This document shows, one piece after another, positions 11,801 to 62,819 of a stretch of DNA of 64,000 bases. The position numbers were made by a program, and so were the translations under genes. The stretch's first letter is position 1; every line of letters begins with the position of its first letter. This DNA comes from a virus (Duplodnaviria; Heunggongvirae; Uroviricota; Caudoviricetes): IMG/VR virus record IMGVR_UViG_3300028648_000132; one strand, written 5' to 3'. The notes beneath the pieces were generated by a model. That model did not search any database, was not told where the DNA came from, and saw only the letters and a program-made list of their open reading frames with translations.

Positions 11801-13577
11801 TGTCGGCCACAAGTTTCAGCGGCGGCTCCAGCGCCTGCATGGCGAAACCTAGGGCGCGCCAACCTGCTACAGCGGTTGCACCGGCGCCCATTGCGATGGC
11901 CTTGGATGCGGCGGCTAGCGAGGGCGTCAGGTCCTTGGCGGCGCTGGAGATGTCGCGCCAGCCCTGCCGGATCTGGTCGACCGCGGTACCGCTGCCGCCA
12001 CCGCCGGTCCTGAGGTCACGCATCGCGTCGGCGGCCTTGTCCAGCCAGCCAGTCATCCCCCTACCGGCTGACTGCAAAGTCGGCGAAACCAGGTCGTACA
12101 GAGCCAGCTTCGCGCTCTCGGCGGTGTTCTTGAGTCCCTCGACAACCCCCGGTAGGCCCTGCATCTGCGCGGCGGCCATCTCGCTGGCACCACCGGCGCG
12201 GCCGACAGCCCGGAACATCTCGTCGAACATCTGGACGCCGCCACCGGCTGCGACCATGGCCGCGCGCATCGCGTCAGAGCCAAACAAGATGTTGGTGTCG
12301 GCCTGGAACTGCTCTTCGGTCATCCTCTTTGACGCTGCGGCAACCTGTTCCAGCATGGAGCGGTAGCCGACGAACTTGCCGGTGGTGTCGTACAGGGTCA
12401 ACCCCAGGCTTTCGATAGCGCCCTGTGCGGGGTTGCCCTGGTCAGTGATGGCCTGGAGGGAGGTCTTGATGAGGGTGCCTGCATCGGAGCCGCGGATACC
12501 GGCGTTGGCCAGAAGTCCGAGGGCAGTAATCGTGTCCTGGGCGGTCAGCCCGAAGCCGTGAGCGACGGCACCGGCCTGCTGAAGACCGAGGGCGAAGTCG
12601 CCGATGTCGCCGGTGGATGCGTTGGCGACGTTGGCCAACATGTCAGCCATATTGGCCGCCTGGTTGGCGTCCATTCCGAAGGCGTGAAGGGCATTGGCCT
12701 GAATCTTGGCTGCCTCTGCTGCGGATACCTGTGCGGCGGTTGCTAATTGCAGGGTGCCGCGAGCCGCGGACATGGACTGGTCGACGTCGAAGCCGCCCTT
12801 GGCGAGTTCGGTCATGGCCTGGGCTGCGTCGGAGGCCGACACACCGGCGAGCTGAGTGTCAGCGCCCAGCTCGCGGGCGCGCCGAGAAACGGCCGCCATC
12901 TGCTCAGGTAGTGCGCGGGTGACGCCCTGCATGGTGTTGAGCGCCGAATCGAACGAAAGGCCCGTGTCGACAACGCTTTTGACGGCAGCGATGAATCCGC
13001 CGCCTGCGGCCAGTGCGGCGCCGGTGTTGAGGGCGCGCTGGAAGCCCTGCGCGAAGCGGGCGCCGGAGTCCGACCCGTACGCCTCGGCCCGCATGATCAG
13101 CCCCGCACCGAACGGCATCTTGACCTGACTGGACGCCTGCGACTGCGCCTTCTGAGCACGCTCCAAGTCCCGGGTGACGCGGGTCAGGTTCTGTGTCGAC
13201 ACCTCCTGTGCGCGCCGCGCCCGCGCCACACCCTCCTCAGCAGTAGCCCGCTGAGTGGCTGTGGCCCTGCCCTTCTCGTTGAGTTCGTTGAGTCGTGTCT
13301 GGGCGACGGTGAGGCGTCCCGTGGCGTCCGCGTCTGCCTTCTTCGCGGTCGCCAGTGCCTTCTCGGCACGTTCGACCTGGCGGAGTGCGTCGACCGCCGA
13401 CTTGCCGCTGGCGGCAAGGTTGCGGGCCATGTCGGCACCCATGGTGCGGGTGGCACGGCCGAAGCGGCGTTCCGCGTCGCGGCCGATGCGTTCGACGCCC
13501 GCGGCAAGGCCCGACGCCTCGGGCATCAGGGGCACCCATACTTGCGCCAGTTCAACGGCGGCGACTGCTGGACTCAA
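8871..13577 (-). CDS. tail tape measure protein (1568 aa)
   Basis: Very long protein with an Ala/Gln-rich coiled-coil N-terminus and internal Gly-rich segments. TTG start at 13577 with an AAAGGAG RBS, overlapping the stop of the chaperone T frame. Contains an embedded Cys-His peptidase-like motif (GPSGTDCSGA...GGGHMAV). Confidence 0.9.
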   Translation of the reverse strand: MSPAVAAVELAQVWVPLMPEASGLAAGVERIGRDAERRFGRATRTMGADMARNLAASGKSAVDALRQVERAEKALATAKKADADATGRLTVAQTRLNELNEKGRATATQRATAEEGVARARRAQEVSTQNLTRVTRDLERAQKAQSQASSQVKMPFGAGLIMRAEAYGSDSGARFAQGFQRALNTGAALAAGGGFIAAVKSVVDTGLSFDSALNTMQGVTRALPEQMAAVSRRARELGADTQLAGVSASDAAQAMTELAKGGFDVDQSMSAARGTLQLATAAQVSAAEAAKIQANALHAFGMDANQAANMADMLANVANASTGDIGDFALGLQQAGAVAHGFGLTAQDTITALGLLANAGIRGSDAGTLIKTSLQAITDQGNPAQGAIESLGLTLYDTTGKFVGYRSMLEQVAAASKRMTEEQFQADTNILFGSDAMRAAMVAAGGGVQMFDEMFRAVGRAGGASEMAAAQMQGLPGVVEGLKNTAESAKLALYDLVSPTLQSAGRGMTGWLDKAADAMRDLRTGGGGSGTAVDQIRQGWRDISSAAKDLTPSLAAASKAIAMGAGATAVAGWRALGFAMQALEPPLKLVADILGNNQWLTTGLVAVLTALYLKSKLAGPALQVAAKATQAWGTAFAGWRTPATQAQQAMENTTRTAGESTRAQRGWATQMKDSYNQAADRSLFFSRTAGTAGAAMTGMKLAGSGVLSMLGGPWGVAAAGVGLAMGMIADAHQKAAQKAQEQKQAEEELRATLDQDSGRVTDETRRKAAERFGKEDPYKTTDIGRAKGLGIDPNMLVDAATGTGNAQAYDIIKKLALDKGVREGLDKVSITGSGGTKLDWNVIQQQYQAMGVSSDELYNALIKEGNGWDTVNGKIAKYRAANPGDQNLVGLQQIIDAMPDANESLITLTQNVNEQRRETDKGAQSLRDMAQAQYGLWKATDVGVARFKDLGAAIVSVPNNKSIDLKVDPAKYDETKKKLEELGYTVTQLPGGIVKVTAATDEAQKRFNDLVYKVNNTTATLPIDLKLANSLGAILPPGLQGVFNAATLAGQVPGRASGGHVDGRGVISGQGTGTSDSILARVMGGAAGQFIKVSNKESINTAQSTRDNMPLINAMNRGWVPSANFLRIMTGIPGYAGGGPISIEDAANDMAGAPYVRGGHGPSGTDCSGAASVLVNAAVGQPPYGERMATANAGDWLAARGAVMGRGPAGTLRVGWKNGGPGGGHMAVTLPDGRNAESGGKVGKFTVGAGAAGADDPQFTNQAYIPVNAMYPDGWPSGAAGGGYSMYGSGGGGGGAGGYGSGGGGGGASPAQRRQLRDAEQKVQDKQFDVEQAQRKLDELQSKKNVKPSEQAAAEERLTRAQREHKDALDDLSTKQEQVNDADTRGRGGQNGQQPGSGPDGKSFAKDMMSGAMEMFGLDGSIFSNPMDWGIFKLFTGGANAIGGMLKNAFGGPQQQQQNPMGTQAMRNNRHGLGGAPGPGDGGLGDFNFGDGGMGVVGDALQAALPQVGDFLPNSQNPGNNNYTTNQNSNNNSATGAAFYGPVTINDPGGLVKPPDRMNTRMTGLPKP

Positions 13578-34200: not shown

Positions 34201-35916
34201 CTACAGTCCGGCCGAGAAGTCCGAGATCAACTGCGGGACAGCCGAGTCGAAACCAGACACGTCGAGCTGGCCGGGGTCGGCGGGGTCGGCGATGGTGAAG
34301 CGGGTTGCCGTCATGCCGACAACGATCAGGCGGGCGTTGATGCCCATCTTGTTGCGGTAGTCGCGGAGCGCCTGGTGCGGGTGGACGTCGCCGAACCAGG
34401 TCTCGTTGTCGGTGATGACCACGAACGTGTCGAACTCGCGCTTGGACTGCTGCGCCCACAGCATCGGGAGTGCGCAGTCTGTGGCGCCGAAGCTGAGTCC
34501 GGCGGTGTACCGGCACACGTCGTCGAGGCGACGGCGCGGTGTGATGTCCAGCGGGGTGAGTAGGTGCTGGGACCGGTAGCCGTAGCCCGAGCGCGCGGCC
34601 TGTCGGCCGTCGGTGAAGCCGACGACTTCGTGGTCCGGCTCGACGTTGGCGGTGACGAGCGCGAGCGCGGCTGCGGCCTCGCGGCATGTCAGCGGCATAC
34701 CCGAGATCGCGGCGCCCATGGAGCCGGACACGTCCAGCGCCAGCAGGGTGCGCATGCCCGACGGCTCCACCGCGCCGTAGGCGTTGTAGAACGCAGCGTC
34801 CAGGGCATCCACGACCTTGCGTTCCGGCGTCCAGGTGGAGTCGCCGCGCGCCGAACGCCCGGACGCATAGGTGCGCTGTGCGATCAGGACGTTGACCGGG
34901 TGGACGCGGCCCTTTCGTAGACGGTCGGCGTCCTGGAGCTGAGCAACGACACGATCCAGATATTCACCATGCAGGACCCCATGCCGGGTCAGCCGCGGCA
35001 GTTGGCGCATCAAAGCCGTCTGCGGCAGACCATGCTCAATCAGCGCTTCCCACACAGCCGTGAAGTTGAGCGCGACGTCTGGCAACGCTTCCCAGGGAAG
35101 GCCGTTGCCACGTCGAATGATGCTCACCCATTCCTTGGGTTGGGTGGCGCGCTGGGCGTCCTCGAAGTCCTCGATGATCGCCAGGGGGTGGTCGACCGCC
35201 AGATCGACATTCGGCAGCTTGGGCCGGGAGGCGTTGCGCTCCCCTGCCTTCAACTGCTCGGCGGTGAGGGGCTGAACCTTGCCGATGTAGTCGTTCAGGC
35301 CCTTGCCGACTGCCCAGTTGAAGGCGAGGCGGCGGGCCGGGTCCGCCGTGGCGGGGCCGGACAGGCGTAGGAGGTCCCGGTGCATCCAGCCTTCGCGCTG
35401 CCGGTACTTGACCAGCTGGTAGGCGAGACGGTCGACGGGCTTGTCGAGGTACCAGCCGCCGACGGCGCGCTGCATGGCGCGGCCCCACCCGCGGAACTGC
35501 TCCATGTACTTGACGAACGTGTACAGCTGGGTGCCGGTGCGGGCGACCGTGGGCAGGGCTGCCGCGGCGGCGCGGCGGCCGTCGACGTCCTCTGCTGCTG
35601 CGGCGATAGCGAGGGCGAACAGGGCCGGGTTCTGTCGGGGCGCGCGTCCGGCCACCGATACCTCGACGATGTGCTGGACGAGGTGGACCGGGTCGGCCGC
35701 TGCTGCGCGGAACACCACCGCCGCGGTGTCCTTAGTCAGGTCGGCGGCGTTGGTGTAGTAGGTGCCGCCGTCGGTGCCGAGGGTGAGGAAGCGGTGCAGC
35801 AGCGTCTCGTCGTCGATGGTGAAGGTGTAGCCACCGGCGGAGTTCTTCACCTGCCGGGGGTCCGCCTGCTGCGACTGCGGCGTCTTACGGGTTCCGATAG
35901 TGGTGAGAACGTCCAC
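34201..35916 (-). CDS. rsr: Ro60/Rsr-like ribonucleoprotein (TROVE domain plus C-terminal vWA domain)
   Basis: 571 aa. C-terminal vWA domain with the MIDAS motif LALDVSGSMGAA, and a long helical TROVE-like N-terminal region. GTG start with an AAGGAGA RBS. Immediately adjacent to tRNA-like ncRNA modules, the arrangement described for rsr/Y RNA loci. Confidence 0.8.
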   Translation of the reverse strand: MDVLTTIGTRKTPQSQQADPRQVKNSAGGYTFTIDDETLLHRFLTLGTDGGTYYTNAADLTKDTAAVVFRAAAADPVHLVQHIVEVSVAGRAPRQNPALFALAIAAAAEDVDGRRAAAAALPTVARTGTQLYTFVKYMEQFRGWGRAMQRAVGGWYLDKPVDRLAYQLVKYRQREGWMHRDLLRLSGPATADPARRLAFNWAVGKGLNDYIGKVQPLTAEQLKAGERNASRPKLPNVDLAVDHPLAIIEDFEDAQRATQPKEWVSIIRRGNGLPWEALPDVALNFTAVWEALIEHGLPQTALMRQLPRLTRHGVLHGEYLDRVVAQLQDADRLRKGRVHPVNVLIAQRTYASGRSARGDSTWTPERKVVDALDAAFYNAYGAVEPSGMRTLLALDVSGSMGAAISGMPLTCREAAAALALVTANVEPDHEVVGFTDGRQAARSGYGYRSQHLLTPLDITPRRRLDDVCRYTAGLSFGATDCALPMLWAQQSKREFDTFVVITDNETWFGDVHPHQALRDYRNKMGINARLIVVGMTATRFTIADPADPGQLDVSGFDSAVPQLISDFSAGL

Positions 35917-35947
35917 CGTGCATCTCCTTGGTAGGGGTGCGGGCGGC

Positions 35948-36030
35948 GCGAACGTGTGTGGGGCTGCCGGGGTTTGTCATCCATGTGAGGGAGGGGTTAA
36001 CCGACTGCGATCCTGCTCGTGCCACCCGTG
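35948..36030 (-). ncRNA. degenerate Y-RNA-like stem (module 0), without a tRNA-like domain
   Basis: Carries the conserved 5'-strand motif variant AGGATCGCAGTCGGTTAAC and a 3'-strand CACACACGUUCG that pair over a short internal loop. Lies between rsr and module 1. Confidence 0.3.
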
Positions 36031-36048
36031 AGGGGCTATTGGGCGGGT

Positions 36049-36168
36049 GATGTGAACGTGTGTGTGCTGACCGGGATTTCGCTTTTACACCCGCACTAGG
36101 TGCGGGCGACAGGGATTGAACCTGCATTACCAATTGAGTGATAACCGACCGAGCGTCCTGTTCACATC
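36049..36168 (-). ncRNA. Y-RNA-like (YrlA-like) ncRNA module 1 with a tRNA-like domain
   Basis: 9-bp closing helix GAUGUGAAC / GUUCACAUC. Conserved motif GUGAACAGGACGCUCGGUCGGUUAUC, a D-loop-like CAAUUGGUAAUG, T-arm GCAGG-UUCAAUC-CCUGU, and a closed acceptor-like hairpin CCCGCAC-CUA-GUGCGGG. Confidence 0.5.
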
Positions 36169-36217
36169 GGGTTGTCTGTCGTGCGCGTAGGTGGTGTGGG
36201 CGTGTGGGGTGCCGACC

Positions 36218-36332
36218 GGCGTATGTGGACAATTGCCTCTACCAATTGGGCTACACCCCGCGAGCGAGGTGGTGGGGCTCGAACCCACACCTGACTGTTT
36301 TGGTAACCGACCTGCGTCCTGTCCACACCGCC
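36218..36332 (-). ncRNA. Y-RNA-like ncRNA module 2 (permuted tRNA-like)
   Basis: Conserved motif, then T-arm GUGGG-UUCGAGC-CCCAC, an acceptor-like hairpin CACCUCG/CGGGGUG closed by a short loop, then UA plus a D-arm-like GCCCAAUUGGUAGAGGC. Closing helix GGCGGUGUGGAC / GUCCACAUACGCC. Confidence 0.5.
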
Positions 36333-36363
36333 TGCGCGCGTGCGTCTGCTGGTGTCTTGAGGT

Positions 36364-36497
36364 GGTGTGAGCGTGTGGGTGTCGTCCGGGTTTTAGCGCT
36401 CTAGGCCGCTGAGCTACAACCACTTTCGTGGCTGGCGGGATTCGAACCCGCGTCTCTCTCATGAAAGGAGATAACCGAACGAAGTCCTGTTCACACC
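36364..36497 (-). ncRNA. Y-RNA-like ncRNA module 3 (permuted tRNA-like; best preserved)
   Basis: Conserved motif, an anticodon-like hairpin UCUCC-UUUCAUG-AGAGA, T-arm GCGGG-UUCGAAU-CCCGC, acceptor 3' strand CAGCCAC, a GAAA loop, acceptor 5' strand GUGGUUG, then UA and a canonical D-arm GCUC-AGCGGCCUA-GAGC. Closing helix GGUGUGAAC / GCUCACACC. Confidence 0.55.
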
Positions 36498-36510
36498 GTG
36501 CTACGTATGG

Positions 36511-36665
36511 AGTTGTGTTGGGTGATGGGGCGAACGTGTGTGTGCTGACCGGGTTTAAGCGCTCTACCAACTGAGCTACAGCCGGGGGTTGGCTGGCGGG
36601 ACTCGAACCCGCGACCTCTCCATTAGCAAGTGGTAACCGATCTGCGTCCTGCTCGCACCATCTGG
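36511..36665 (-). ncRNA. Y-RNA-like ncRNA module 4 (permuted tRNA-like)
   Basis: Conserved motif, T-arm GCGGG-UUCGAGU-CCCGC, an acceptor-like hairpin CAGCC-AACCCCC-GGCUG, then UA and a canonical D-arm GCUC-AGUUGGUA-GAGC. Closing helix GAUGGUGCGAGC / GUUCGCCCCAUC. Confidence 0.5.
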
Positions 36666-36687
36666 TGTTTATGTTGTGGTTTGGGGG

Positions 36688-36808
36688 CGACGTGAACGTG
36701 GTTGGCGCTGGACGGGTTTGGCTCCATTTCCCCGCTTGGCTCGGGGCGTTCTAACTTGAACTACGGGGCGTGGCCCCGAGATAACCGACCTGCATCCTGT
36801 TCACGTCG
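36688..36808 (-). ncRNA. Y-RNA-like ncRNA module 5 (divergent internal hairpins)
   Basis: Perfect 10-bp closing helix CGACGUGAAC / GUUCACGUCG. Carries the conserved motif, but internally has GC hairpins (CUCGGGGC...GCCCCGAG) instead of a clear T/D pair. Confidence 0.4.
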
Positions 36809-36835
36809 TCCGTTGTTTTGTTGTCTGAAAACGAA

Positions 36836-36853
36836 GCTATACCGCGGTATAGC
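36836..36853. promoter_or_regulatory. perfect 18-bp palindrome GCTATACCGCGGTATAGC between the secreted-protein gene and the ncRNA array
   Basis: A hairpin/operator candidate containing the AGCTATAC core. It is followed on the minus strand by a U-rich stretch (UAUAGCUUCGUUUUCAG), so it could act as a terminator for the upstream gene and/or as a promoter/operator for the array. Confidence 0.4.
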
Positions 36854-36907
36854 GGTGCGGCAACAGGATTCCGGGGTGGCTGTATAGCCGCTCGGTAGCC
36901 GCGACCA

Positions 36908-37246
36908 TCACTTTCCGGCGCCAGCGCCTCCGCTCGCCGAGGACCCACCGCTACCTGCGGACCCGCTACCAGCGCTGTTGCCTCCACTTTCACCCGCGCC
37001 TGGACTTGCCGGACCTGTAGGTGGATGGTGTTGGCCCTCAGGGCATTCCGGGTCCTCTGGGGGTTTGTATCCGCCGCCACCTGCTGGGGTGAAGGGTGCG
37101 GGTCGGGCACCCAGGCATGTCTTGGCGTCTGTCGCGGCGTACAGGCAACGCTCTGGGAATGCGGAGGCCGTTGTAGTTGGGAGTGCCGTGAGGGCGGCGA
37201 TGGCGGTAGCAATGAAGGCAATGCGTTTTGCACTAAGGCTTTTCAT
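36908..37246 (-). CDS. small secreted protein (signal peptide, Gly/Ser/Pro-rich)
   Basis: Start at MKSLSAKRIAFIATAIAALTALPTTTASA, a predicted signal peptide. 112 aa. The upstream 111 codons of the track ORF are artefact. Sits next to a divergent promoter region. Confidence 0.55.
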   Translation of the reverse strand: MKSLSAKRIAFIATAIAALTALPTTTASAFPERCLYAATDAKTCLGARPAPFTPAGGGGYKPPEDPECPEGQHHPPTGPASPGAGESGGNSAGSGSAGSGGSSASGGAGAGK

Positions 37247-38410: not shown

Positions 38411-38600
38411 ACTCATAGAGCAGGCCGTGAGCGAATACGGGTGGGCAACTGAGAAACCCACCATCTACGCGCCGATGTTGTACAAGTACACCAAGGCAGG
38501 CCGCCATCCGGTGCTGGTTATCTACGACATCCACGGCGATCTGGACGGCGAGATGATTGTGACGGCCGACGAAATCGTGGCTGAACTGTCCAGCAACTAA
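38397..38600 (+). CDS. hypothetical protein
   Basis: GTG start at 38397 (VQNRELIEQAVSEYGW...). Its end converges on the stop of the minus-strand early operon at 38597. Confidence 0.4.
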   Translation: MQNRELIEQAVSEYGWATEKPTIYAPMLYKYTKAGRHPVLVIYDIHGDLDGEMIVTADEIVAELSSN

Positions 38601-39031
38601 ACGTCATCCGGCGGCCAGTAGATACGGGCGTCCAACCGCTGCTGCTCCTCGGGGGTTGTGGGTGCTGGCGGGTCGTTGTTCCGCATGTAGCGCTCCCACG
38701 CGGAACGGCGGCGAGTCTCGGCGTGGTGCTTCTCAGCGGCCTTCCGGGCGGCGCGTAGGTCGTTGCCGCAGTAGAGGTCCCGGGATGACGTAATAGCGTC
38801 CCAGTCGGTCGACCCTGGCGCGTATTCAGTGATCCAGCAGCGTTTGACTATCTCGGTGGTGGTGTTGGTCGGCGGGTCCCAGAGGGTGTACCCGGTTGTT
38901 CGCGGCAACAGGGTGTAGGTCCCGCCGACTTCGTCGCGGTGGTGGGCGACCCACAACCAGCGGCCCTTGTGCCAACGGTCCTCGACTCGTTTCCATGCCA
39001 GGGTGACGTCGACGAAGGCGATGCCGGTCAT
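38597..39031 (-). CDS. hypothetical protein
   Basis: ATG at 39031 overlaps the upstream stop (ATGA). 144 aa. Last gene of the early operon. Confidence 0.45.
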   Translation of the reverse strand: MTGIAFVDVTLAWKRVEDRWHKGRWLWVAHHRDEVGGTYTLLPRTTGYTLWDPPTNTTTEIVKRCWITEYAPGSTDWDAITSSRDLYCGNDLRAARKAAEKHHAETRRRSAWERYMRNNDPPAPTTPEEQQRLDARIYWPPDDV

Positions 39032-39372
39032 GCTGTTCCGCCACTTTGGGGTATCTCGATGGCCGACGCCACCATGTACTTGACCTCTGCCATGTGCCGC
39101 TCGAACCGTTCGCGCTGGGCTTTCTCGTAGGGGCGTTCTACGCGTTGGGTTGGCCAGTCGGGCTCCATGATGCGGCGTTGGGCCTCGGCTTCGGCGGCCT
39201 CCATGACGCCGGTGATCCACCTGCCGTCGTTGATCAATGGCCGGGCGTCGGCGGGCAGCGTCTCCACCGTGTCGCGGCCATTGGTGGACGGTTCGCATTT
39301 GTAGAAGCCGCCCCAGTTGTCGAGCTGCCAGAAGATCTGGCCTGACGGGGTGGCCCATAGTTCCCAGATCAT
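39028..39372 (-). CDS. hypothetical protein
   Basis: 114-aa ORF. Confidence 0.45.
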   Translation of the reverse strand: MIWELWATPSGQIFWQLDNWGGFYKCEPSTNGRDTVETLPADARPLINDGRWITGVMEAAEAEAQRRIMEPDWPTQRVERPYEKAQRERFERHMAEVKYMVASAIEIPQSGGTA

Positions 39373-42372: not shown

Positions 42373-42980
42373 TGCTGCCTCCAAGTCTGTCCACACTCCG
42401 TGCACTCCCGGGTAACCGAGCCGGGGTCCTGGGTGCATGGCTGTATGTAGTGGGTGTTGATGAATCCGCAACGGGGGCAGGCGCATTGTGCGGCGAACTC
42501 AGATACGCGGTAGGTGTCGGGTCGGGTCGGTTTGGCTATCTCGGGTGCGCCTAGGACCTTGTATCCCTGGCCGAGCCAGAGGTATGCAACCTCGCTCGTG
42601 CGGTCCCACCACCACTTGCCGATGTGGTCGGTGGCGGCGTTGACCATGCTGGGCAACTCGTCGTAGGAGTCGACCTCGCCGAACATGTACAGGGGCTGGC
42701 CAGTACCGGAGCGGGCAAGTAGTGCACGCCGTAGCGGGTTCGGTTCGACTCCGACCCAGCGCTGGCCGCCGATGTTCACGTCGCCGACGATGGTGTGTGC
42801 GGCGATGCTGCCGCGGCTGGCCTGCACCGTGATGGTCCCGCCAGCCTGGATCGCGACGGAATTGTCTCCGGAGATCTGGATCTGGTTGCCACGTCGGCGC
42901 AGTCCGAGCGTCAACAGGTATGCGGTGAATCCGCCACTAGCCGCAAGGAATAGCGCCATGGCCTCAAGAAGCACGCTCAC
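42369..42980 (-). CDS. membrane-anchored protein with a C-terminal zinc ribbon
   Basis: GTG at 42980 overlaps the upstream stop. N-terminal TM helix VLLEAMALFLAASGGFTAYLLTLGL. C-terminal CACPRCG...CTECG. Confidence 0.45.
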   Translation of the reverse strand: MSVLLEAMALFLAASGGFTAYLLTLGLRRRGNQIQISGDNSVAIQAGGTITVQASRGSIAAHTIVGDVNIGGQRWVGVEPNPLRRALLARSGTGQPLYMFGEVDSYDELPSMVNAATDHIGKWWWDRTSEVAYLWLGQGYKVLGAPEIAKPTRPDTYRVSEFAAQCACPRCGFINTHYIQPCTQDPGSVTRECTECGQTWRQQ

Positions 42981-62645: not shown

Positions 62646-62683
62646 TCCGTAGTCAGATGCTCTATCCGTTGAGCTACGGGCGC
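62608..62683 (-). tRNA. tRNA-Arg (anticodon ACG), CCA encoded; integration site (attR overlaps its 3' end)
   Basis: Cloverleaf: GCGCCCG-UA-GCUC-AACGGAUA-GAGC-A-UCUGA-CUACGGA-UCAGA-AGGUU-AGGGG-UUCGAAU-CCCUU-CGGGCGC-A-CCA. Confidence 0.9.
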
Positions 62684-62730
62684 TTACTATTCAATTGTTG
62701 CAGGTCAACAGGTTTGGCCTGCAGACCGAC

Positions 62731-62819
62731 GCGGAGGCGAGAGGATTTGAACCTCCGGTCCCCCGTAAAGGGGACAACTCATTAGCAGTGAGTCCCATTC
62801 GGCCGCTCTGGCACGCCTC
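62731..62819 (-). tRNA. tRNA-Ser (anticodon GCU), type II with a long variable arm
   Basis: GGAGGCG acceptor, D-arm GCCAGAGCGGCCGAAUGGGAC, anticodon loop CUGCUAA, and a long variable arm before the T-arm GGAGG-UUCAAAU-CCUCU. Coordinates are approximate to +/-1 nt. Confidence 0.85.

What the first reader, a model, noticed from the sequence alone, without database searches (positions are those of the whole stretch)
36218..36665. Modules 2-4 are circularly permuted tRNA mimics: T-arm, then loop-closed acceptor stem, then D-arm
In modules 2, 3 and 4 the element order on the RNA is T-arm, then acceptor 3' strand, then a short loop, then acceptor 5' strand, then UA, then D-arm. Module 3 reads GCGGG-UUCGAAU-CCCGC, CAGCCAC, GAAA, GUGGUUG, UA, GCUC-AGCGGCCUA-GAGC. 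Module 4 reads GCGGG-UUCGAGU-CCCGC, CAGCC, AACCCCC, GGCUG, UA, GCUC-AGUUGGUA-GAGC. The T-loop (UUCGAAU) and D-arm (GCUCAGUUGGUAGAGC) are canonical tRNA sequences, but no 5'/3' acceptor ends exist. The ends are instead in the long closing helix at the position where a tRNA would carry its anticodon stem. This explains why the region looks tRNA-rich yet cannot be folded into standard cloverleaves. It matches the YrlA-type architecture, in which a tRNA-like elbow is presented on a Ro-binding stem.
Basis: seen in the sequence. Interest (0 to 1): 0.8.

Follow-up and report, generated by a model that had tools for sequence, protein, structure and literature searches.

The report
Prophage Y RNA array mimicking tRNA
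Upstream of a prophage Ro60 (Rsr) gene lie six small-RNA genes in a row, three of which fold like a tRNA with its parts in rotated order; this is the already described YrlA class of bacterial Y RNA, here in an unusually large and unannotated array.

Summary
On the minus strand, 35941-36810 holds six tandem units, not five. Each is closed by a long 5'/3' helix with conserved strands (CAGGA...UCGGUUA and CCGG...CACACG). The array sits directly upstream of, and on the same strand as, a Ro60/Rsr gene (34201-35916; TROVE and vWA_Ro60 domains).

RNAalifold recovers this fold from 26 homologous units. 95.5% of cells pair, against 35-48% in slid controls, and 19 of 30 pairs show compensatory changes, including all 7 acceptor pairs.

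A covariance model built from these units scores the experimentally validated M. smegmatis YrlA at 130 bits, against 142, 135 and 102 bits for U2-U4. It finds 155 further units in 48 rsr loci, all upstream of rsr on its strand.

The YrlA interpretation is therefore supported. The kind is known (Chen et al. 2014; crystal structure 2018; Rfam RF02553).

What is new is modest:
- the array has 6 units here and up to 7 in relatives, in a M. abscessus prophage family, against 2 in M. smegmatis and a Bixzunavirus;
- the units carry different caps;
- one unit is mis-annotated as tRNA-Thr in a GenBank relative.

The parts
36836..36863 (-). Promoter-like site, TTGCCG-16 nt-TATAGC, with an embedded palindrome GCTATAC-CGCG-GTATAGC (36836-36853)
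   Evidence: A TTGNNN-N15-18-TACAGT pattern lies roughly 10-90 nt upstream of the first unit in 15 of 25 rsr loci inspected. The window variant keeps the palindrome through symmetric changes (CTGTAC...GTACAG becomes CTATAC...GTATAG). The tool's own scan called it terminator-like. Its function is inferred.
36685..36810 (-). It has no T arm.
   Evidence: R1 41.2 bits, E 6e-8. MFE z-score -3.3. Orthologues occur only in near-identical prophages, so there is no covariation to test the cap.
36523..36662 (-). V hairpin 36614-36634, T arm 36596-36612, 5-bp acceptor hairpin 36579-36595, UA, D arm 36561-36576.
   Evidence: R1 142.3 bits. Rfam YrlA 43 bits, E 7e-8. The MFE fold gives the same architecture. 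It is orthologous to M. smegmatis YrlA.
36360..36500 (-). V hairpin 36453-36471, T arm 36435-36451, 7-bp acceptor stem closed by GAAA 36417-36434, UA, D arm 36398-36414.
   Evidence: R1 135.5 bits. MFE z-score -3.4 with all arms formed. All 7 acceptor pairs form.
36189..36332 (-). T arm 36272-36288, 7-bp acceptor stem closed by CUCG 36254-36271, UA, D arm 36235-36251. An extra segment after the D arm allows an alternative closing helix.
   Evidence: R1 102.1 bits. A15:U48 replaces G15:C48. The MFE uses the alternative helix.
36045..36171 (-). It has no D arm.
   Evidence: R1 76 bits with the D arm deleted. Orthologues in prophages whose Rsr is 75% identical average 95% column identity.
35941..36026 (-). 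It ends 12 nt before the rsr ribosome-binding site.
   Evidence: R1 43.3 bits, E 2e-8. The same minimal unit lies next to rsr in many actinobacterial phage loci.
34201..35916 (-). rsr, a Ro60 orthologue of 571 aa, with GTG start and AAGGAG ribosome-binding site at 35924-35929
   Evidence: Pfam TROVE 1.2e-46 and vWA_Ro60 5.6e-64. It is 65% identical to M. smegmatis Rsr. It is annotated 'Ro-like RNA binding protein' in MW584167.

Best explanation
The region is a tandem array of six Y RNA genes of the YrlA/YrlB kind. They are encoded just upstream of, and probably co-transcribed with, the Ro60 (rsr) gene of a Mycobacterium abscessus prophage of the prophiGD43A-5 family.

Each unit pairs its 5' and 3' ends into a long interrupted helix. 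The conserved strands of that helix (5' GAGCAGGAYG...RUCGGUUAYC; 3' CCCGGUCAGC...CACACGYYC) form the Rsr-binding module. The distal end of the helix carries a variable cap.

In U2, U3 and U4 the cap is a complete tRNA-like domain in rotated order: V hairpin, T arm, loop-closed acceptor stem, U8-A9 equivalent, D arm. The Ro stem stands where the anticodon stem would be, so the RNA presents a T-loop/D-loop elbow. U5 has only a T arm and an acceptor-like hairpin. U1 has a different three-hairpin cap. U6 has almost none.

By homology with characterised systems, Rsr binds the stem of each RNA and the cap recruits or gates a partner. That partner is PNPase in D. radiodurans, Salmonella and Thermus phage phiLo. 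This would give the phage a set of Ro RNPs that act on structured host or phage RNA. U3 and U4, with 7-bp acceptor stems like M. smegmatis YrlA, are likely to be cut by RNase P in the acceptor loop and to receive CCA.

Shown here: the sequence elements, their covariation-supported fold, the linkage to rsr, and homology to validated YrlA. Inferred: transcription as one precursor, processing, Rsr binding, the effector, and the biological role.
For: Anatomy:
- Six units, all on the minus strand.
- The MFE folds of U2 and U3 give a closing helix plus V, T, acceptor and D hairpins.

Structure:
- The RNAalifold consensus on a MAFFT alignment of 26 units predicts the terminal helix, the inner helix, the T arm, a 7-bp acceptor stem and the D arm.
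- 95.5% of cells pair, against 35-48% when the partner is slid. 19 of 30 pairs show double changes, a value reached by 0 of 500 shuffles. All 7 acceptor pairs and 5 of 7 terminal-helix pairs covary.
- The tertiary Levitt equivalent is C:G in 23 units and U:A in 2.
- The un-permutation test is positive for U2, U3 and U4.

Linkage:
- The rsr gene lies immediately downstream.
- All 155 R1 hits in 48 rsr loci are upstream of rsr and on its strand.

Family:
- Rfam YrlA is the best family hit for U2, U3 and U4, leaving aside the chimeric tRNA match that overlaps U2 and U3.
- M. smegmatis YrlA and YrlB, which co-immunoprecipitate with Rsr (PMC4201824), score 130.4 and 53.3 bits with R1.
- The published probe sequences match orthologous units at 17 of 17 positions.
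- The unit in Bixzunavirus Delylah, the genus I recall ET08 (a published phage YrlA host) belonging to (from memory, not checked), scores 96.8 bits.

Transcription:
- A conserved promoter-like element lies upstream of the first unit.
- No terminator-like site lies within the array on the coding strand.

Literature on YrlA architecture and tertiary contacts: PMC4201824 and bioRxiv 10.1101/312249.
Against: - No unit reaches Rfam's YrlA gathering score (43 against 69 bits). The validated M. smegmatis YrlA does not either (45.1).
- The published Rsr motif GNCGAAN0-1G is not matched literally. The window units read GCAGGAYG at the equivalent place, where Delylah reads GCCGAAGG and M. smegmatis GCCGGACG.
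- There are no expression, processing or binding data for this prophage.
- The U1 cap has no covariation support.
- The MFE of U4 prefers an alternative closing helix.
- The function of the tRNA-like domain is unknown even in the model organisms (PMC4201824, Functional implications section).
Confidence: 0.88

Rival explanations
1. The units are real tRNA genes in an unusual form. They could be circularly permuted, as in the red alga Cyanidioschyzon. Alternatively they could be split, or carry an intron, so that the D half of one unit joins the T half of the next.
For: Rfam's tRNA model gives an above-threshold hit at 36427-36585 (36.9 bits against a gathering score of 29) that joins the D half of U2 to the T half of U3. 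ARAGORN and GenBank call a tRNA-Thr(tgt) in the U2 orthologue of MW584167. The un-permuted elements are recognised as tRNA.
Against: - No unit has an anticodon arm at the junction of its ends. That position holds a helix of about 25 bp with strongly conserved non-tRNA strands, which also occurs in units with no tRNA parts (U6).
- The Rfam hit needs a 100-nt insert and has 2 mismatched acceptor pairs. Cross-unit acceptor pairing is 5, 4 and 5 of 7. Within-unit pairing is 7 of 7 in U3, U4 and U5, and it covaries at all 7 pairs.
- The ARAGORN tRNA-Thr has 4 of 7 acceptor pairs and uses the V hairpin as its anticodon arm. It disappears in the window, where that loop has 8 nt.
- The mirror artefact appears when R1 is run over two genuine adjacent tRNAs (62651-62777).
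- From general knowledge, not tested here: maturation of permuted tRNA needs the archaeal/eukaryal splicing endonuclease, which bacteria lack.
Confidence: 0.02
2. The region is a decaying remnant of a phage tRNA gene cluster. On this view it consists of pseudogenes scrambled by recombination and has no function of its own.
For: Mycobacteriophages often carry tRNA clusters. Real tRNAs lie just upstream of the Y RNA units in phage Sparky (L019). The number of units varies from 5 to 7 among near-identical prophages.
Against: - Compensatory changes keep every helix.
- The same element order and the same flanking strands recur in 155 units from Actinomycetota, Poribacteria, Fimbriimonas and phages, always beside rsr.
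- U5 averages 95% column identity across orthologues that include prophages whose Rsr protein is only 75% identical.
- The M. smegmatis homologue is expressed and bound by Rsr (PMC4201824).
Confidence: 0.03
3. The units act mainly in cis, as a structured leader of the rsr mRNA, rather than as free small RNAs. They could be Rsr-binding sites that autoregulate rsr translation or stability, or tRNA-like processing signals for RNase P.
For: There is a single promoter-like site upstream and no internal terminator-like site. U6 ends 12 nt before the rsr ribosome-binding site, and a minimal unit occupies that position in many loci.
Against: In M. smegmatis both YrlA and the rsr-proximal YrlB are detected as discrete small RNAs bound to Rsr (PMC4201824; locus). 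This reading does not exclude the main one. A precursor can be both a leader and a source of small RNAs.
Confidence: 0.07

Closest known systems
YrlA of Mycobacterium (Mycolicibacterium) smegmatis (Chen et al. 2014, PMC4201824)
   Same: It has the same closing-stem strands and the same order: V hairpin, T arm, loop-closed 7-bp acceptor stem, UA, D arm. It lies upstream of rsr on the same strand. R1 scores it at 130.4 bits, in the range of U2-U4. The V hairpin of U2-type units is nearly identical to that of M. smegmatis YrlA: CCACUUCUAAUGG in the orthologues of related prophages, CCACUUGCUAAUGG (one extra base) in the window's U2.
   Different: M. smegmatis has one YrlA and one YrlB. The window has three full tRNA-like units plus three other units. 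The host element here is a prophage. The 5'-strand motif reads GCAGGA rather than GCCGGA.
YrlA and YrlB of Salmonella Typhimurium (Rfam RF02553; crystal structure 6CU1, bioRxiv 10.1101/312249)
   Same: The architecture and tertiary-contact nucleotides agree: the UUCGA T loop, the GG of the D loop, the UA linker and the Levitt pair. It is the best Rfam match for U2, U3 and U4.
   Different: The Salmonella RNA has a short V loop, a shorter acceptor stem and a shorter Ro stem, and lies in the RtcR-controlled rsr-yrlBA-rtcBA operon. The window units score below Rfam's gathering score. No rtcB or rtcA was found next to rsr here: the neighbouring ORFs tested gave no Pfam match, and the related prophage annotates only hypothetical proteins there.
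Mycobacteriophage YrlA-like RNAs (ET08 and other Bixzunavirus/cluster C1 phages; Chen et al. 2014)
   Same: These are phage-encoded and lie upstream of a Ro-like gene. The Delylah unit scores 96.8 bits with R1.
   Different: Delylah has two units, one full and one minimal, and they overlap annotated hypothetical CDSs. The window family has 6-7 units with diversified caps.
Yrl1 and Yrl2 of Thermus phage phiLo (PMC12135203)
   Same: Several Y RNA-like genes lie upstream of a phage Ro60. The complex binds host PNPase, which suggests a similar role here.
   Different: The paper describes no tRNA-like domain (the term does not occur in its text). There are two units, and the host is from a different phylum.
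Yrn1 of Deinococcus radiodurans and metazoan Y RNAs
   Same: Each has a Ro-binding stem formed by the 5' and 3' ends and an effector module at the far end. Yrn1 has a T-arm-like hairpin.
   Different: Yrn1 has a different arm order and no full D arm. Metazoan Y RNAs have no tRNA-like domain. The Rfam Y_RNA family gave no match at E up to 10.
Circularly permuted tRNA genes, two-piece (permuted) tmRNA and viral tRNA-like structures
   Same: All contain tRNA parts out of the usual order or context, with a T-loop/D-loop elbow.
   Different: Those mature to RNAs with free acceptor ends, and with an anticodon or its substitute. Here the ends are locked in a Ro-binding helix. Rfam tmRNA matched only the T arm (17 bits against 47).

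Membership tests
YrlA-type bacterial Y RNA | Encoded within about 4 kb of a Ro60/Rsr gene on the same strand | tested here: met
   The array lies 25-894 nt upstream of rsr (34201-35916) on the minus strand. The same holds for 155 of 155 units in 48 loci.
YrlA-type bacterial Y RNA | The 5' and 3' ends pair into a long stem that carries the Ro-binding site | tested here: met
   The terminal helix (7 bp, 5 pairs covarying) and the inner helix (7 bp, 3 covarying) appear in the RNAalifold consensus.
YrlA-type bacterial Y RNA | GNCGAAN0-1G motif near the 5' end (proposed Rsr contact) | tested here: inconclusive
   The literal motif is absent. The window units read G(A/G)(A/G)CAGGAY at the equivalent internal-loop position. 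The homologous position reads GCCGGACG in validated M. smegmatis YrlA and GCCGAAGG in Delylah, so this clade has a variant of the motif.
YrlA-type bacterial Y RNA | Element order: V region, T stem-loop, AS stem-loop, UA, D stem-loop | tested here: met
   Met for U2, U3 and U4. U5 lacks the D arm, U1 lacks the T arm and U6 lacks all of them.
YrlA-type bacterial Y RNA | tRNA tertiary-contact nucleotides: T loop UUCRA, D loop GG, A14, and the Levitt pair 15:48 with compensatory G:C or A:U | tested here: met
   The T loops read UUCGAGU, UUCGAAU and UUCGAGC. The D loops contain GG. The 15:48 pair is G:C in U2 and U3 and A:U in U4. Across 26 units it is C:G in 23, U:A in 2 and unpaired in 1.
YrlA-type bacterial Y RNA | Reaches the Rfam RF02553 gathering score (69 bits) | tested here: not met
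   U2 scores 43.0, U3 28.9 and U4 28.5 bits. The cut-off also excludes validated M. smegmatis YrlA (45.1 bits), Delylah (36.1) and every unit in 19 other loci. It therefore says little about actinobacterial members.
YrlA-type bacterial Y RNA | Sequence and structure homology to an experimentally validated member | tested here: met
   R1, built without M. smegmatis, scores its YrlA at 130.4 bits (E 7e-30) and its YrlB at 53.3 bits. The published probe sequences match orthologous units at 17 of 17 positions.
YrlA-type bacterial Y RNA | Physically bound by Rsr and modified by TruB and DusA; cleaved by RNase P with CCA addition when the acceptor stem has 7 bp | not testable with these tools
   This needs immunoprecipitation, modification mapping and in vitro cleavage. 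U3 and U4 have 7 of 7 acceptor pairs and U2 has 5.
Canonical tRNA gene | Acceptor stem formed by the 5' and 3' ends, with an anticodon arm between the D and T arms | tested here: not met
   ARAGORN calls nothing in the array. The only Rfam tRNA hit is a two-unit chimera with a 100-nt insert. The acceptor stems are closed by loops.
Circularly permuted tRNA gene | Joining the ends reconstitutes a complete tRNA with an anticodon arm | tested here: not met
   The ends form a conserved interrupted helix of about 25 bp. That helix is shared with units that have no tRNA parts. ARAGORN calls a tRNA only when a foreign anticodon arm is supplied.
tmRNA, including two-piece forms | A tRNA-like domain together with a tag reading frame and pseudoknots | tested here: not met
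   ARAGORN finds no tmRNA. Rfam tmRNA scores 17.3 bits against 47, covering the T arm only.

The most novel reading that the evidence does not exclude
The expanded array may be more than redundancy. It could be a phage toolkit of distinct tRNA-shaped ligands.

U3 and U4 (and U5) would be cut by RNase P and receive CCA, as M. smegmatis YrlA does. They would then become two-piece, Ro-tethered molecules with tRNA-like acceptor ends. Such molecules could serve as decoys or sensors for host factors that target tRNA. Examples are acceptor-end-modifying toxins of abortive-infection systems, CCA-adding or repair enzymes, and tRNA-modifying enzymes. Alternatively they could steer Rsr-PNPase to different RNA classes during infection or lysogeny.

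The different V hairpins and acceptor stems would then encode different partner specificities. One V-hairpin type has an anticodon-loop-like CU-NNN-AA loop.
Probability: 0.1. Interest if true: 0.65.

Novelty: new member of a known kind. Interest (0 to 1): 0.3.

Why it matters
The finding assigns a known function class to about 870 bp of unannotated prophage sequence in a clinically important pathogen, Mycobacterium abscessus. It also corrects a tRNA-Thr annotation in a deposited prophage genome.

Phage and prophage Ro loci can carry up to six or seven different Y RNAs. The two best-known actinobacterial loci checked here, M. smegmatis and a Bixzunavirus, carry two. Units with graded caps occur side by side: full tRNA mimic, T arm plus acceptor only, and bare stem. 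That makes the locus a natural dissection series for an open question in the field, namely what the tRNA-like domain of YrlA binds.

The locus does not reveal a new kind of RNA.

Tried and rejected
1. Rfam at gathering thresholds over the whole window gave no YrlA match, only two real tRNAs and the chimeric tRNA hit. The E-value mode was needed.
2. Rfam at gathering thresholds on 19 related loci gave no YrlA match either. The cut-off is therefore uninformative for this clade.
3. A seventh anchor match at 42413-42431 got no support from R1 and was treated as chance.
4. The sigma-70 scan found no promoter. A manual pattern search across loci found a conserved TTGNNN-N15-18-TACAGT element.
5. Covariation analysis of U1 failed because all orthologues are nearly identical.
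6. I examined whether the ARAGORN tRNA-Thr in the GenBank relative is a true tRNA, and rejected it.
7. I examined cross-unit acceptor pairing as a split-tRNA reading, and rejected it.
8. The supplementary tables of Chen et al. 2014 and the 2020 Annual Review were not available. I therefore could not check whether multi-unit phage arrays were already tabulated there.
9. Pfam gave no family for the neighbouring ORFs tested, apart from one sub-threshold match in the ORF at 38597-39358. No candidate effector gene was found next to rsr.
Full report
**What is there.** The RNA strand is the minus strand. Reading 36810 down to 35941, the sequence has six tandem units separated by C/A-rich linkers of about 15-30 nt.

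- Every unit begins with a 5' strand of the form GxxGUGARCAGGAYGCAGRUCGGUUAYC.
- Every unit ends with a 3' strand of the form AAACCCGGUCAGCACACACACGYYCACAYC.
- The anchor CAGGA-N5-8-CGGTTA occurs seven times in the 64-kb window against 0.08 expected. Six of these lie in the array.
- A 571-aa ORF follows directly on the same strand (34201-35916, GTG start, AAGGAG 8 nt upstream). It has TROVE (1e-46) and Ro60-vWA (6e-64) domains, so it is a Ro60/Rsr orthologue.

- Single-sequence MFE folds of U2 and U3 reproduce this arrangement. U3 has a z-score of -3.4.
- ARAGORN finds no tRNA in the array.
- Rfam's tRNA model gives one hit above its gathering score (36427-36585, 36.9 bits). It joins the D half of U2 to the T half of U3 across a 100-nt insert and has two mismatched acceptor pairs.
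- Cross-unit acceptor pairing is 5, 4 and 5 of 7. Within-unit pairing is 7 of 7 for U3, U4 and U5.
- The mirror artefact appears when my own model is run over two genuine neighbouring tRNAs at 62651-62777.
- As a direct test of 'circular permutation', I re-ordered the elements of each unit into tRNA order with the anticodon arm of the window's own tRNA-Arg. ARAGORN then calls a tRNA for U2, U3 and U4. It calls none for the native order and 0 of 50 when the T and D arms are shuffled.

**Related sequences and covariation.** The window is about 92-95% identical to M. abscessus prophages prophiGD43A-5 and prophiT37-1. There the gene is annotated 'Ro-like RNA binding protein' and the array is unannotated, apart from a 'tRNA-Thr(tgt)'.

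- Using the Rsr protein I fetched 47 further loci from viral and genome collections. I later added a Bixzunavirus locus and the M. smegmatis locus.
- A MAFFT alignment of 26 non-identical full units (A2) was folded by RNAalifold without any input from me. It predicts a 7-bp terminal helix, a 7-bp inner helix, a 5-bp T stem, a 7-bp acceptor stem and a 4-bp D stem.
- On that structure 95.5% of cells form standard pairs, against 35-48% when the partner is slid by 1-3 columns.
- 19 of 30 pairs show changes on both sides, against 5-11 in the slid controls. No shuffle in 500 reaches the observed values.
- All seven acceptor pairs and five of seven terminal-helix pairs covary.
- The equivalent of the tRNA Levitt pair is C48:G15 in 23 units and U48:A15 in the U4 type. 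This is the compensatory pattern reported for YrlA (PMC4201824).

**Family assignment.** A covariance model built from A2 (R1) finds exactly six units in the window: U2 142 bits, U3 135, U4 102, U5 76, U6 43 and U1 41.

- In the 48 loci then held it finds 155 units, all upstream of rsr and on its strand.
- Rfam's YrlA family (RF02553) is the best match for U2, U3 and U4 (43, 28.9 and 28.5 bits; E 7e-8 for U2). All are below the gathering score of 69.
- To judge that cut-off I fetched the M. smegmatis rsr locus. Its upstream region contains the published YrlA and YrlB Northern-probe sequences of Chen et al. 2014.
- R1, which was built without M. smegmatis, scores that YrlA at 130.4 bits and that YrlB at 53.3 bits. 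Rfam's model gives the validated YrlA only 45.1 bits.
- A unit from Bixzunavirus Delylah gets 36.1 bits from Rfam and 96.8 from R1. From memory, not checked here, the published phage ET08 belongs to the same genus.
- None of 19 related loci reaches Rfam's threshold. The Rfam failure therefore reflects a narrow model, not non-membership.
- The published probe sequences match orthologous units in related prophages at 17 of 17 positions.
- One defining motif, GNCGAAN0-1G, is matched only as a variant. It reads GCAGGAYG here, GCCGGACG in M. smegmatis and GCCGAAGG in Delylah.

**The other units.**

Its alignment with seven orthologues, three of them from prophages whose Rsr is 75% identical, has a mean column identity of 95%.
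It sits next to the rsr ribosome-binding site. The same minimal unit occupies that position in many actinobacterial phage loci.
- U1 has three hairpins, one of them D-arm-like after a UA, but no T arm. Its orthologues are too similar to test the fold.

**Number of R1 units per locus**:

| Locus group | Units |
|---|---|
| M. abscessus prophage family | 6-7 |
| Related prophages | 4-5 |
| Phage Sparky | 2 |
| Bixzunavirus Delylah | 2 |
| M. smegmatis and chromosomal Mycobacterium loci | 2 |
| Some non-actinobacterial genomes (e.g. Fimbriimonas) | up to 4 |

**How it most likely works.** The fold, the linkage to rsr and the homology to YrlA are shown here. The steps below are inferred.

1. One promoter drives the array and rsr. 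A TTGNNN-N15-18-TACAGT element lies upstream of the first unit in 15 of 25 loci inspected. The window has TTGCCG-16-TATAGC at 36836-36863. No terminator-like site lies inside the array on this strand.
2. The units are released from the precursor at the C/A-rich linkers.
3. Rsr binds the conserved stem of each RNA. In M. smegmatis, YrlA and YrlB co-precipitate with Rsr (PMC4201824).
4. The caps of U2, U3 and U4 fold into an L shape with a T-loop/D-loop elbow, as in the Salmonella YrlA crystal structure (bioRxiv 10.1101/312249).
5. U3 and U4 have 7-bp acceptor stems closed by tetraloops, as M. smegmatis YrlA does. That RNA is cut by RNase P and receives CCA, which the authors attribute to the 7-bp stem. 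The same processing is therefore expected here. U2, with 5 bp, should stay intact.
6. The RNPs recruit an effector. PNPase is the known partner in D. radiodurans and Salmonella, and for Thermus phage phiLo Ro60 (PMC12135203).

What the tRNA-like domain binds is unknown even in the model systems.

**Rival readings.** Genuine permuted or split tRNA genes, decayed tRNA clusters, and a purely cis-acting rsr leader are treated in the rivals section. The first two are contradicted by the covariation, by the conserved non-tRNA closing strands shared with cap-less units, and by the strict linkage to rsr. The third is compatible with the main reading.

**Novelty.** The kind is known. YrlA RNAs were described in more than 250 bacteria and 22 phages in 2014, and a crystal structure and an Rfam family exist.

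I found no paper describing six- or seven-unit arrays, or the M. abscessus prophage instance. I could not read the 2014 supplementary tables or the 2020 review.

I rate it a new member of a known kind, of modest interest. It is a correct reading by the first stage. It adds an annotation correction and offers a naturally graded set of Y RNA caps that could help find the partner of the tRNA-like domain.

Noticed in passing
L001 6240-6318 (MW584167.1 26001-26079); window equivalent about 36583-36665 (-): The GenBank record of prophiGD43A-5 annotates a tRNA-Thr(tgt) inside the U2 orthologue. ARAGORN reproduces the call. However, the call has 4 of 7 acceptor pairs, an odd D arm, and uses the V hairpin as its anticodon arm. 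It is a false positive on a Y RNA.
   Followed up: yes
window 36614-36634 (-) and U2-type units in L001, L011, L012, L017, L018, L020, L030, L052: The V hairpin of U2-type units, including M. smegmatis YrlA, has a CCA/UGG stem and a 7-nt loop CU-NNN-AA. The middle triplet varies between loci (UGU, UCU, UUU), so the loop has the signature of an anticodon loop. The window copy has 8 nt (CUUGCUAA). The meaning is unknown.
   Followed up: partly
window 36836-36863 (-); upstream of the first unit in L015, L017-L021, L023, L025, L027-L030, L044: A conserved promoter-like element TTGNNN-N15-18-TACAGT lies upstream of the array. In phage loci it is overlapped by a palindrome CTGTAC-N5-GTACAG. The window has CTATAC-CGCG-GTATAG, which keeps the symmetry through paired changes. 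This suggests an operator for a dimeric regulator, or a hairpin. The terminator scan also flags it.
   Followed up: partly
window 36222-36234 and 36318-36332 (-), unit U4: U4 carries an extra segment (AAUUGUCCACAUACG) after its D arm. The segment is complementary to U4's own 5' strand GGCGGUGUGGACA. The MFE therefore uses an alternative closing helix in place of the family's terminal helix. The insertion is conserved in orthologues (L003, L007). It may be a structural switch.
   Followed up: no
L049 2157-2309 and 2335-2413 (Mycobacterium phage Delylah, MZ388551.1): The two Y RNA units of this Bixzunavirus overlap annotated 'hypothetical protein' CDSs 233 and 234. These CDSs are probably spurious ORF calls over non-coding RNA genes.
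   Followed up: partly
window 36908-37246 (-), compared with L001 5128-5561: The slot just upstream of the array varies. The window has a 112-aa ORF with a signal-peptide-like N terminus, four cysteines and a Gly/Ser-rich tail. The 92-95% identical prophage has a BrnT-like toxin/antitoxin pair on the opposite strand there.
   Followed up: no
window 11909-12007 (+): ARAGORN calls a 99-nt tRNA-Ser(gga) here. The sequence has no T-loop motif and Rfam does not find it. It is probably a false positive inside coding sequence.
   Followed up: partly
window 62651-62777 (-): R1 gives a weak hit (19.6 bits) that joins the T arm of the real tRNA-Ser(gct) to the D arm of the adjacent real tRNA-Arg(acg). 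It mirrors the chimeric Rfam tRNA hit in the array and serves as a useful control.
   Followed up: yes
L007, L008, L010 (units at about 2242-2390) and L004 2455-2579: Near-identical M. abscessus prophages differ in unit number. A seventh, 149-nt full unit is present in some, and a truncated unit is present in L004. The array therefore gains and loses units on short time scales.
   Followed up: no
L011-L013 first unit (2233-2410); L018 2659-2804; L020 and L021 about 2755-2897: Some units in related arrays have a D arm of the class II tRNA type (GUGGCAGAGCGGCCGAAUGCA), and some also have a long insertion in the acceptor hairpin. Different units in one array may therefore imitate different tRNA classes.
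   Followed up: no
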